Shown here piece after piece: positions 50,201-53,200 of a stretch of DNA of 64,000 nucleotides. The stretch is from Escherichia coli (lineage in GTDB: Bacteria > Pseudomonadota > Gammaproteobacteria > Enterobacterales > Enterobacteriaceae). Made by a program: the position numbers. The DNA lies in the NCBI RefSeq assembly GCF_003790525.1, contig NZ_CP033635.1. One strand, given 5' to 3'. Position 1 is the first letter of the stretch, and each line of letters opens with the position of its first letter.

Positions 50201-53200
50201 ATGGCGAAGGGATTATCTGCCCCTGCATGAGCGGCAATCCACTCTGAGGGAATAAAGCCATAAATAAAAGAGCCTATTAATACCCCTAACAAAGATATGG
50301 CAGTACATCTTTAAACTGTTGCAACGCATCTTTGGTGGCTAGTTTTATGGGATTAATACTTACCACAGCTTTGGTATTGCAACAGTTAACTACGGGTTTC
50401 TCAATGGCTTTAGCCGTTGGACTACAGCAACTCACTTCTATTGGCGTATATGTCGTCCCCGGCGAAGTTTTGGCTGGAGCACAACAATTTGCTGATGAGC
50501 TTTTACTGGCAATGATATGACGTTCAAATCCCAGGGAATCCAGGATAATACTGGCAAGTACGGAGACGCCGGCGGCGATAATCGCGTACAACAAGGTAAC
50601 TTTCCAGCCAAAGGTCACCCACATTAACCCGACGATAATGGGATTAAGTAATGGGGAAACAAATAAAAAAGTGAGGGTCGGACCAAACCCGGCTTTCGCT
50701 GATAACAATCCACGTAACATGGGGATTGTCGAGCAACTACAGAACGGGGTAACGGCTCCCAACAGAGCAGCCAGGAGATAACCTCTCCCTTTTCTGGCCC
50801 CCATCATCTGCTGGATTTTATGGTCTGGCACCTTTTGTCTTATCAGGCTGACACCGGCACTAATCACTATAAACAGCAAAGAAAGCTCGACGGCGAGAAA
50901 CACAAACATCTCTGCGGCATCTTGCAGCATCGCAAGCCAACTACTCATACGTAACCTCATTGAATAAATCTATATTTCCAGAATAATCGAAATGAAATTC
51001 AGATCAAGATATTTCTGGTATTATCGAAATATCAACCAGACAGAGGGGAGTCATATGCAGTTGGAAGAAGTTGCTAAAGCGCTGAAAGAGCTAGGTCACC
51101 CGACCCGTTTGTTCATATTTAAGCATCTGGTCAAAGCGGGGGAACAAGGTTTGCCGGTCGGTGAGTTGCAAAAGCAGCTTGGGATACCCGGCTCTACACT
51201 CAGTCACCATATTTCAGCACTGGTATCGGTAGGGTTGGTCAAACAAAACCGTGAGAGTCGGACGCTGATGTGTGTTTCGCAATACGCAATGCTGGAAGCG
51301 ATAATTGAATTTTTACGTGAGGAGTGCTGCGTAAACAGCAAAACAGATGGCGAAGGAGCCACGAAGAACAAATAAGGGGGCATATCCCCCTTTAGCTATT
51401 TCAGGCGTTTACCCGCCTCATCAACCACTTTCTCGCCATCTTCCTTGGTGAACGCGCGTTGTTGCGCATCTGGCAGAATTTCCAGCACCACTTCTGAAGG
51501 GCGGCACAGGCGAGTTCCCAGCGGTGTCACCACAATCGGGCGGTTAATCAGGATGGGATATTGCAGCATAAAGTCGATTAACCGATCGTCAGTAAATTTA
51601 TCTTCTGCAAGGCCCAGTTCCTCATACGGCTCAACGTTTTTACGCAACAGCGCACGAACGGAAATCCCCATATCGGCAATGAGCTTGATCAGTTCATCGC
51701 GTGTGGGTGGAGTTTCCAGATAATAGATAATGGTCGGTTCTGTACCGCTGTTGCGAATCATCTCCAGCGTATTACGCGACGTGCCGCAGGCCGGGTTGTG
51801 ATAAATAGTAATGTTGCTCATATCAGTATCTCATTACAAAGTGAAAGAGAGACGAAGCGCCAGCGCGGCGAGCGTCACAAACAGCACCGGCAGGGTCATG
51901 ATAATCCCTGTACGGAAGTAATATCCCCAGCTGATAGTCATATTCTTCTGCGAAAGTACGTGCAGCCAGAGCAGCGTTGCCAGGCTACCAATCGGTGTAA
52001 TTTTCGGCCCCAAATCGCAGCCAATTACGTTGGCATAAACCATCGCTTCTTTGATGACACCAGATGCCGTGCTGCCATCAATGGACAACGCGCCAACCAG
52101 TACCGTCGGCATATTGTTCATAATAGAAGAGAGGAAGGCGGTGAGGAATCCGGTGCCGAGCGTCGCCGCCCACAGGCCGTTATCCGCCAGCACGTTGAGT
52201 ACGCCAGAAAGATATTCCGTTAATCCGGCATTGCGCAGGCCATAAACCACCAGATACATGCCGAGCGAGAAGATGACAATCTGCCAGGGCGCACCGCGCA
52301 GCACCTTACCCGTATTAATCGCATGACCGCGTTTAGCGACGACAAATAATATCAGCGCGCCCACTGCCGCAATGGCGCTTACCGGAATGCCGAGCGGTTC
52401 CAGGACGAAAAATCCCACCAGCAGAAGCAGTAAAACAACCCCGCCAGTTTTGAAGGTGGCAGGATCTTTAACCGCTTCTGCGGGAGATTTTAGCAGCGCC
52501 ATGTCGTAGTTCTGCGGAATATCTTTGCGGAAATAGAGATGCAACATCACCAGGGTAGCCAGTATTGCAGCGATATCCACCGGCACCATCACCGAGGCGT
52601 ATTCGCGAAAGTCGAGGCTAAAGAAATCTGCCGAAACGATATTCACCAGGTTAGAGACAATAAGCGGCAGGCTGGCGGTATCGGCAATGAATCCGGCCGC
52701 CATAACAAACGCCAGCGTAGTGCCTTTGTTGAACCCTAAAGCCAGCAGCATGGCGATGACAATCGGTGTCAAAATAAGCGCCGCGCCATCATTGGCAAAC
52801 AGAGCTGCAACGGCAGCACCGAGCAGGACAATCCAGGTAAACAGCAAGCGACCGCGCCCATTGCCCCAGCGTGAGACGTGCAGCGCCGCCCATTCAAAAA
52901 AGCCGGACTCATCCAGCAGCAAGCTGATGATAATGACGGCTATAAACGCCGCCGTCGCGTTCCAGACGATATTCCACACCACCGGAATATCGCCCGGATG
53001 GACCACGCCAGTAACTAACGCCAGTACGGCGCCCAGTGTCGCACTCCAGCCGATGCCTAAACCTTTCGGCTGCCAGATAACCAATACGATGGTCAGGACA
53101 AAGATAGCGCCCGCCAGTAACATCATGCCTCCTTGATAAAACACATTCGAATATTCATATGTGTTTAGATAAATTTTTTAACTACAAATATTCTTACTGT

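What the first reader, a model, noticed from the sequence alone, without database searches (positions are those of the whole stretch)
50280..50300. Frameshift splits the ArsP-like permease at a short homopolymer
The 224-aa and 114-aa ORFs are adjacent but in different frames. Reading the minus strand, the junction is ...CCA TAT CTT TGT TAG..., and restoring one T in the T-run would give a continuous ...PYLLLGVLIGSF... reading frame. This is either a genuine recent inactivation, a phase-variable site, or a sequencing or assembly error in a homopolymer.
Basis: seen in the sequence. Interest (0 to 1): 0.5.

Follow-up and report, generated by a model that had tools for sequence, protein, structure and literature searches.

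The report
Private one-base deletion breaks permease gene
A single missing T splits an otherwise intact E. coli membrane-transporter gene next to the arsenic-resistance operon; the deletion occurs in no other genome examined, so it is either an assembly error or a very recent strain-specific knockout, and is ordinary either way.

Summary
On the minus strand a T4 run is T3 (plus-strand 50290-50292), which splits a 333-aa PF03773 (ArsP_1) permease into a 220/224-aa fragment and a 114-aa fragment. Restoring one T reproduces the intact protein WP_000100281.1 exactly.

The window is E. coli chromosome of the SMS-3-5 clone. Over all 64 kb it is identical to strain 2D (NZ_CP059003.1) except for two one-base deletions: this one, and one at 62214 in the uspA-uspB intergenic region.

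- **How rare it is.** None of 2,046 complete E. coli genomes covering the site has the T3 allele. The 62214 deletion is in 0 of 5,420. A metagenome scan found the T3 allele 0 times and the intact allele 17 times.
- **Homologues.** In E. fergusonii, Salmonella, Citrobacter, Aeromonas and a Proteus plasmid the gene is one ORF of 330-377 aa, with a conserved VLPYLLLGVLIGSF segment across the junction.
- **Excluded.** Phase variation (short tract, no length polymorphism) and programmed frameshifting (no slippery site, no conserved two-ORF form).
- **Error or real.** Two private deletions and no private substitutions, both at invariant positions, favour an uncorrected assembly error (about 0.6) over a genuine recent inactivation (about 0.35). 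Only reads can decide.

"ArsP-like" holds at family level and by conserved linkage to ars operons. The substrate is untested. Interest is low.

The parts
50290..50292 (-). The lesion. A T3 run on the coding strand (AAA on the plus strand) where every homologue has T4; a one-base deletion.
   Evidence: Searches show a single gap at window 50290 against SMS-3-5, strain 2D and a metagenome contig. In one search, 0 of 2,046 genomes carry T3. Searches found the T3 allele 0 times and the T4 allele 17 times in metagenome contigs.
50286..50960 (-). N-terminal fragment ORF: 224 aa from the first ATG, 220 aa from the RefSeq start at 50948. It ends ...LPYLC* at the premature TAG (50288-50286). It holds predicted TM1-4, the CSC motif (residues 70-72) and the Cys-rich loop (residues 142-211, three CC pairs).
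   Evidence: NF033936 positions 5-180; hydropathy and Cys positions.
49948..50292 (-). C-terminal fragment ORF: 114 codons from a TTG that is simply Leu220 of the intact protein. It holds predicted TM5-8. There is no Shine-Dalgarno-like sequence upstream, so it is probably not translated.
   Evidence: NF033936 positions 202-312..
49948..50948 (-). The whole disrupted gene: 1001 nt here against 1002 nt for the intact 333-aa PF03773 permease WP_000100281.1.
   Evidence: Pfam ArsP_1, E 1.5e-52; 2,217 genomes with a full-length match; every listed record spans 1102 or 1114 nt against the 1101-nt query and is annotated 'permease'.
51055..51375 (+). Divergently transcribed ArsR/SmtB-family regulator (106 aa, WP_001175590.1). 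It has conserved Cys73 and a C-terminal vicinal Cys90-Cys91, and lacks the CVC motif of the classical ArsR. Presumed repressor of the permease gene.
   Evidence: NF033788, 61.7 bits against a cut-off of 55; alignment with the Aeromonas, Citrobacter and Proteus partners and with E. coli ArsR.
50964..51033 (.). Divergent promoter region with two 22-nt copies, 37 bp apart, of an imperfect palindrome (ATATTTC..GAAAT). They overlap promoter-like hexamers on both strands. Likely operator sites (inferred).
   Evidence: D1, I1-I3.
51396..53123 (-). arsC and arsB of the chromosomal arsRBC operon, immediately adjacent to the regulator-permease pair.

Best explanation
The record carries a one-base deletion (T4 to T3 on the coding strand, plus-strand 50290-50292). 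It shifts the frame of an otherwise intact 333-aa, 4+4-TM PF03773 (ArsP-family) permease gene after codon 219.

As written, the sequence encodes TM1-4 plus the Cys-rich loop and then stops. TM5-8 are left in another frame with no ribosome-binding site, so this is a null allele.

The deletion is private to this record. Because it comes with a second private one-base deletion and no private substitutions in 64 kb, it is most likely an uncorrected single-base deletion error in the consensus, not a biological feature.

- **Shown:** the deletion, its uniqueness, and the intactness and conservation of the gene elsewhere.
- **Inferred:** that the cause is a sequencing or assembly error.
For: - **Nearest relative.** The window is identical to strain 2D over 64,000 nt except for two one-base deletions, with 0 substitutions. 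Against SMS-3-5 the only further difference is a substitution in rcdB, where the window carries the allele found in 453 genomes and both strains encode the same protein.
- **Both deletions are private.** The T3 allele is in 0 of 2,046 genomes. The 62214 deletion is in 0 of 5,420. In metagenome contigs the T3 allele occurs 0 times and the intact allele 17 times. The N-terminal fragment ending PYLC is absent from a collection of about 15 billion proteins.
- **Both hit invariant positions.** One lies in a conserved TM5 segment. The other lies in an intergenic stretch that is conserved in 5,420 genomes: every best match falls in the 95-99% identity band, and all 12 listed rows differ from the window only by the gap. 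That is what errors blind to selection would do.
- **Expected ratio.** From my general knowledge, natural E. coli divergence and mutation-accumulation lines give roughly ten substitutions per indel, whereas residual errors in long-read consensus are mostly single-base deletions. Two deletions against zero substitutions therefore favours error.
- **Source not in RefSeq.** The source genome is not among 5,426 RefSeq complete E. coli genomes. This fits a draft or an assembly kept out of RefSeq, though it proves nothing.
Against: - No reads are available, so the inference is statistical and rests on two events.
- The pattern is not the classic homopolymer-length error of nanopore, 454 or Ion Torrent. 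All 4 runs of 8 nt and all 13 runs of 7 nt in the window are correct. One deletion is in a run of only 4, and the other (TAGAGCC to TAGGCC) is not in a homopolymer.
- If the source is an Illumina draft, single-base indel errors are rare and the deletions would more likely be real.
- The gene is dispensable: it is present in only 2,233 of 5,426 genomes. It is also independently inactivated elsewhere, by a nonsense mutation in an ENA contig. A real knockout is therefore quite plausible.
Confidence: 0.6

Rival explanations
1. Genuine, very recent loss-of-function mutation. A replication-slippage deletion of one T in the T4 run arose in this isolate or its immediate ancestors and turned a dispensable accessory efflux permease into a pseudogene.
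For: - The lesion is a one-base deletion in a mononucleotide run, the commonest kind of spontaneous frameshift.
- The gene is accessory, present in 41% of complete E. coli genomes.
- It is independently knocked out by a nonsense mutation 20 nt upstream in a metagenome contig. The protein cluster also contains many 'partial' forms.
- All long homopolymers in the window are correct, so there is no sign of a generally poor consensus.
Against: - Two private indels with no private substitution in 64 kb is unexpected for natural divergence.
- The second deletion hits an intergenic stretch that carries the extra base in all 5,420 genomes.
- No other genome or metagenome shares the allele, so it has no detectable evolutionary history.
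Confidence: 0.35
2. Phase-variable contingency site. The T-run changes length reversibly and switches the permease on and off.
For: Only that the frameshift lies in a mononucleotide run.
Against: - The tract is 3-4 nt. From general knowledge, known contingency tracts are usually at least 7-8 nt.
- None of the 2,046 genomes covering the site has the T3 length, and every listed record spans 62 nt for the 61-nt query, i.e. T4.
- All 17 metagenome matches carry T4.
- The window holds 604 runs of exactly 4 nt, so the tract is not special.
Confidence: 0.01
3. A functional split or recoded gene. Either a programmed -1 ribosomal frameshift restores the full-length protein, or termination-reinitiation at the overlapping TTGTTAG yields two half-permeases (TM1-4 and TM5-8) that assemble.
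For: - A -1 shift after CTT would restore the native sequence exactly.
- The stop codon and the TTG are 1 nt apart.
- The ArsP family is built from two 4-TMS repeats, and single 4-TMS members are reported (PMC7176098).
Against: - There is no X XXY YYZ slippery heptamer, and the CUU and UGU tRNAs cannot re-pair in the -1 frame (sequence).
- There is no Shine-Dalgarno sequence before the TTG.
- No homologue is organised as two ORFs.
- The one apparent natural 114-aa 'half' (P0292) is an artefact of N-gaps in a scaffold.
- T3 is too short for transcriptional slippage.
Confidence: 0.02

Closest known systems
Intact E. coli 'permease' WP_000100281.1 (SMS-3-5 ECSMS35_RS19165; strain 2D H0E72_RS21905)
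   Same: Identical DNA except for the one missing T. Same locus between arsC plus the ArsR/SmtB regulator and the 407-aa hypothetical gene and slp.
   Different: The window allele is frameshifted after codon 219. The reference alleles are a single 333-aa ORF.
ArsP organoarsenical efflux permease of Campylobacter jejuni (TC 2.A.119; Pfam PF03773 ArsP_1)
   Same: - Same Pfam family, matched end to end.
- A 4+4 TMS layout with a hydrophilic central loop, as described for the family (PMC7176098).
- Encoded next to ars operons in E. coli, Citrobacter and Aeromonas.
   Different: - No sequence comparison with C. jejuni ArsP itself could be made here, and no functional data exist.
- This subfamily has its own divergent ArsR/SmtB regulator.
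- It also has a long, variable loop rich in CC pairs.
SO_0444 family Cu/Zn efflux transporter (NF033936) and SaoE (NF040736)
   Same: These are the best NCBIfam matches (109.9 and 86.3 bits). The protein shares the CSC motif that Haft describes as the most conserved feature of both families (bioRxiv 10.1101/2022.07.06.499078).
   Different: The scores are far below the curated cut-offs of 300 and 325 bits, so it is not an equivalog. Its regulator is ArsR/SmtB-type and not ZntR-like, and its neighbours are ars genes and not a SAO locus.
Strain-specific frameshift pseudogenes and consensus indel errors in bacterial assemblies
   Same: A single-base indel in a short mononucleotide run splits a conserved CDS into two adjacent ORFs. 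It is private to one record.
   Different: Nothing distinguishes it from either class. Telling the two apart needs reads.

Membership tests
PF03773 / TC 2.A.119 (ArsP family permeases) | Full-length match to the Pfam ArsP_1 model | tested here: met
   the restored protein matches at residues 9-330, model positions 3-293 of 294, E 1.5e-52; the two window fragments match consecutive parts of a related profile.
PF03773 / TC 2.A.119 (ArsP family permeases) | A 4+4 TMS topology with a hydrophilic loop between the halves (PMC7176098) | tested here: met
   four hydrophobic segments at residues 10-141, a hydrophilic Cys-rich loop at 142-211, and four more at 212-333. This is a hydropathy estimate only. 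A simple Smith-Waterman comparison of the two halves was not significant (z = 1.9).
PF03773 / TC 2.A.119 (ArsP family permeases) | Conserved Cys-Ser-Cys motif in the first half (Haft preprint) | tested here: met
   TPFCSCSTIP at residues 67-76, invariant in all six full-length homologues aligned.
ArsP in the strict sense (methylarsenite/roxarsone(III) efflux) | Demonstrated efflux of, or resistance to, trivalent organoarsenicals | not testable with these tools
   Only genomic association is available: the regulator-permease pair lies next to arsRBC, arsRDABC, or arsR-arsD-arsA-acr3-arsC in three genera. The primary ArsP paper (PMC4681449) is not held.
SO_0444 Cu/Zn efflux (NF033936) and SaoE (NF040736) equivalogs | Score at or above the curated NCBIfam cut-off | tested here: not met
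   109.9 bits against 300, and 86.3 bits against 325.
Phase-variable (contingency) locus | A long simple-sequence tract with length polymorphism among strains | tested here: not met
   The tract is T3/T4. The T3 length is in 0 of 2,046 genomes and in 0 metagenome contigs, against 17 with T4.
Programmed -1 ribosomal frameshift | A slippery heptamer and a two-frame organisation conserved in homologues | tested here: not met
   The sequence C CAT ATC TTT GTT AGG has no X XXY YYZ site. All homologues are single ORFs of 330-377 aa.
Sequencing or assembly consensus error | Private to the record, accompanied by other private indels, with no private substitutions | tested here: met
   two one-base deletions and 0 substitutions against strain 2D in 64 kb; neither deletion is in any complete genome.
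Sequencing or assembly consensus error | Errors concentrated in the longest homopolymers (nanopore, 454 or Ion Torrent type) | tested here: not met
   all 17 runs of 7 nt or more are correct. The deletions lie in a 4-nt run and in a non-homopolymer context.
Sequencing or assembly consensus error | Reads disagree with the consensus | not testable with these tools
   No reads and no source accession are available.
ArsR/SmtB metalloregulators (the neighbouring gene) | Score at or above the NF033788 cut-off | tested here: met
   61.7 bits against 55. Cys73 and the C-terminal CC pair are conserved, and the ELCVCDL motif of classical ArsR is absent.

The most novel reading that the evidence does not exclude
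The deletion is real, and the locus still yields a working transporter. Termination at TAG would be followed by reinitiation at the overlapping TTG (TTGTTAG), giving two separate 4-TMS halves: TM1-4 with the CSC motif and Cys-rich loop, and TM5-8. These would reassemble in the way single-repeat members of the ArsP/TOG superfamily are thought to dimerise. That would be a natural 'split permease' caught just after fission.
Probability: 0.01. Interest if true: 0.35.

Novelty: already known. Interest (0 to 1): 0.08.

Why it matters
It matters little biologically. At most, one isolate of a widespread E. coli clone (SMS-3-5-like) has lost an accessory, uncharacterised thiol-rich efflux permease that 59% of complete E. 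coli genomes lack anyway.

Its practical value is for quality control. Two private single-base deletions in 64 kb flag the source assembly for a check of its indel error rate before any pseudogene call from it is believed.

A side product may be more useful. A conserved module, made of an ArsR/SmtB regulator with a C-terminal CC pair and a PF03773 permease with a CC-rich loop, sits beside ars operons in several genera and has never been characterised. It is a reasonable candidate for an organoarsenical or soft-metal efflux system.

Tried and rejected
- **Looking for the same allele elsewhere.** I used 61-nt and 1.1-kb megablast against 5,426 complete E. coli genomes, an exact-pattern scan of 241 million metagenome records (with a positive control), and an exact-sequence look-up of both fragment proteins among about 15 billion proteins. 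None carried the T3 allele.
- **The one exact hit to the 114-aa fragment.** ENA contig L006 turned out to carry a different lesion, AAA to TAA 20 nt upstream, with T4 intact.
- **A possible natural half-size gene.** A 114-aa protein from another taxon, P0292, starts at the same residue at 59% identity. It is caused by N-gaps in a scaffold.
- **Internal repeat.** A Smith-Waterman comparison of the N and C halves gave z = 1.9, which is not significant, so I rely on the published 4+4 description.
- **Solved structures.** No relative was found by sequence. I did not run structure prediction because it would not bear on the frameshift question.
- **Literature.** The primary ArsP paper PMC4681449 is not held. 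Searches for its cysteine residues returned nothing usable. I therefore made no residue-level comparison with C. jejuni ArsP. The resemblance of the regulator's C-terminal CC pair to the AfArsR and SpArsR type of As(III)/MAs(III) site is from memory only.
- **Methylation-motif contexts.** I looked for GATC and CCWGG, typical of nanopore systematic errors, at both deletion sites. Neither is present (sequence).

Full report
**1. The observation**

The ORF list shows a 224-aa ORF at 50286..50960 and a 114-aa ORF at 49948..50292. Both are on the minus strand, in different frames, and they overlap by 7 nt. The minus-strand junction reads CTG CCA TAT CTT TGT TAG, giving LPYLC*.

The two products are consecutive pieces of one protein. 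They match positions 5-180 and 202-312 of the same NCBIfam profile, NF033936 (E 4.7e-14 and 4.6e-12).

**2. What the window is, and what changed**

The window is E. coli chromosome covering bcsC ... gadAXW, mdtEF, hdeABD, the chu heme cluster, slp, arsRBC, gor, prlC, uspA/B and pitA. It lies in reverse orientation relative to NC_010498.1 (SMS-3-5).

- A base-by-base comparison over all 64 kb with SMS-3-5 gives three differences.
  - A substitution at 19872 in rcdB. The window carries the allele found in 453 genomes, and SMS-3-5 and strain 2D encode the same RcdB protein.
  - A one-base deletion at 50290.
  - A one-base deletion at 62214.
- Against strain 2D (NZ_CP059003.1) only the two deletions remain, with 0 substitutions in 64,000 nt.
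- At 50290 the plus strand reads AAC-AAAG against AACAAAAG, i.e. T4 to T3 on the coding strand.
- The intact allele encodes the 333-aa 'permease' WP_000100281.1, which reads ...FKDVLPYLLLGVLIGSFIYGF....

**3. How common the allele is**

- The gene region occurs in 2,233 of 5,426 complete E. coli genomes. Of these, 2,217 have a full-length match. Every listed record spans 1102 or 1114 nt against the 1101-nt query and is annotated 'permease'.
- A 61-nt probe centred on the junction found no perfect match among the 2,046 genomes that cover it. Every listed record spans 62 nt for the 61-nt query.
- An exact 40-mer for the T3 allele is absent from 241 million metagenome records. The T4 41-mer is found in 17 contigs.
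- The N-terminal fragment ending in PYLC is absent from about 15 billion predicted proteins.
- The 114-aa C-terminal fragment occurs once, in an ENA contig. That contig carries an independent nonsense mutation (AAA to TAA) 20 nt upstream and has T4 intact.
- Beyond E. coli, homologues in E. fergusonii, Salmonella, Enterobacter, Citrobacter, Aeromonas and a Proteus plasmid are all single ORFs of 330-377 aa covering 100% of the query. The segment FK[DE]VLPY[LM][LM][LI]G..IGSFIYGFIP across the junction is conserved.
- One 114-aa 'half' protein from another taxon (P0292) is an artefact of N-gaps in a scaffold.

**4. Rejected mechanisms**

*Phase variation.* The tract is 3-4 nt, and the window contains 604 runs of exactly 4 nt. 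No length polymorphism appears in 2,046 genomes or 17 metagenome contigs.

*Programmed -1 frameshifting.* A -1 shift would restore the protein. However, there is no slippery heptamer, the CUU and UGU tRNAs cannot re-pair in the -1 frame, and the two-frame layout is not conserved.

*Transcriptional slippage.* T3 is far too short.

*Independent translation of the C-terminal half.* The TTG is simply Leu220 of the intact protein, and no Shine-Dalgarno sequence precedes it.

**5. Real mutation or error**

This cannot be settled without reads, but the evidence leans towards error.

- Relative to its nearest relatives, the window has two private single-base deletions and no private substitution.
- Neither deletion is seen in any complete genome.
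- Both fall at positions that are invariant elsewhere. One is in a conserved TM segment. The other is in an intergenic stretch conserved in 5,420 genomes: every best match falls in the 95-99% identity band, and all 12 listed rows differ from the window only by the gap.
- From general knowledge, natural divergence and mutation-accumulation data in E. coli give about ten substitutions per indel, and selection removes indels faster. Residual consensus errors of long-read assemblies are mainly one-base deletions.

Several points count against error.

- All 17 homopolymers of 7 nt or more in the window are correct.
- The second deletion (TAGAGCC to TAGGCC) is not in a homopolymer, so this is not the classic homopolymer-length error profile.
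- The gene is dispensable, being absent from 59% of genomes, and it is inactivated independently elsewhere.

I put error at about 0.6, a real recent mutation at about 0.35, and everything else at 0.05 or less.

**6. What the gene is**

- The restored protein matches Pfam PF03773 (ArsP_1) end to end, E 1.5e-52.
- Hydropathy gives four hydrophobic segments (residues 10-141), a 70-residue hydrophilic loop (142-211) and four more segments (212-333). This is the 4+4 layout described for the ArsP family, TC 2.A.119 (PMC7176098).
- The protein carries the CSC motif (residues 70-72) that Haft notes as the most conserved feature of the related SO_0444 and SaoE families.
- The loop carries three CC pairs. 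Its length varies among homologues but it is always Cys-rich.
- NCBIfam places the protein nearest to the SO_0444 Cu/Zn efflux and SaoE families, but far below their cut-offs: 110 bits against 300, and 86 against 325.
- No relative with a solved structure was found by sequence.
- The frameshift falls after residue 219, at the start of TM5. The predicted product keeps TM1-4 and the loop and loses the entire second repeat, so I infer a null allele.

**7. Context and likely function (inferred)**

- The permease is transcribed divergently from a 106-aa ArsR/SmtB regulator. It scores 61.7 bits on NF033788 against a cut-off of 55.
- The intergenic region contains two 22-nt copies of an imperfect palindrome, 37 bp apart, overlapping promoter-like hexamers on both strands. 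These are probably operators.
- The regulator-permease pair is conserved beside ars operons: arsRBC in E. coli, arsRDABC in Citrobacter, and arsR-arsD-arsA-acr3-arsC in Aeromonas. On a Proteus plasmid it lies next to another ArsR-type gene, a SLAC1/TehA-type transporter and a molybdopterin oxidoreductase.
- The regulators share Cys73 and a C-terminal vicinal CC pair. They lack the CVC motif of the classical ArsR.

Together this supports a thiol-based efflux system for an arsenical or another soft metal(loid). 'ArsP-like' is therefore fair at family and context level, but the substrate is untested. The family also includes Cu/Zn exporters (PMC3219624).

**8. Verdict**

The feature is a private one-base deletion in an otherwise intact accessory permease gene. 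It is most likely a consensus error and otherwise a very recent pseudogenisation. It is neither phase-variable nor recoded. This is an ordinary finding of low interest.

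Noticed in passing
window 62214 (between 62213 and 62215; uspA-uspB intergenic, about 125 nt upstream of the uspB ATG at 62339 and about 265 nt upstream of the uspA ATG at 61949): A second private one-base deletion, TATAGAGCC to TATAGGCC. It is absent from all 5,420 complete E. coli genomes that hold the region, and it is not in a homopolymer. With the permease frameshift, it is the only difference from strain 2D in 64 kb.
   Followed up: partly
window 50964-51033: Two 22-nt copies of an imperfect palindrome (ATATTTCCAGAATAATCGAAAT and ATATTTCTGGTATTATCGAAAT), 37 bp apart. They lie in the divergent promoter between the ArsR/SmtB regulator and the permease and are likely operator sites.
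   Followed up: partly
window 51055-51375 (+); L025:4596-4892, L026:4604-4900, L028:4571-4894: The permease's partner regulator has conserved Cys73 and a C-terminal vicinal Cys-Cys in four genera and lacks the CVC motif of the classical ArsR. The regulator-permease module sits beside three different types of ars operon. It appears to be an uncharacterised, conserved module.
   Followed up: partly
L006:941-1942 (ENA metagenome contig ERZ28627607 scaffold_3356): Independent inactivation of the same permease gene by a nonsense mutation (AAA to TAA) 20 nt upstream of the T-run. A gene caller produced the same 114-aa C-terminal fragment there.
   Followed up: yes
window 53681-53763 and 53914-53997 (-): Two copies of the AgrB-type antisense RNA (Rfam RF02891, 85 and 108 bits) lie within a pair of roughly 135-nt direct repeats at 83% identity, next to dinQ. 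This is the known agrA/agrB arrangement.
   Followed up: no
window 27866-27979 (-), 33759-33830 (-), 43501-43532 (+): Known RNAs at their expected places: GadY, the ES205 sRNA, and the shuA/chuA 5' UTR thermoregulator.
   Followed up: no
window 19872: The only substitution against SMS-3-5, T against A, at a third codon position in rcdB. Both strains encode the same protein, WP_001572053.1. The window carries the allele found in 453 genomes; the A in SMS-3-5 is absent from at least nine closely related genomes that match window 1-25000 perfectly.
   Followed up: yes
window 48145-49368 (-): A 407-aa hypothetical protein (WP_000020632.1) lies between the permease and slp, with no family assignment in the RefSeq annotation. 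I did not examine it.
   Followed up: no
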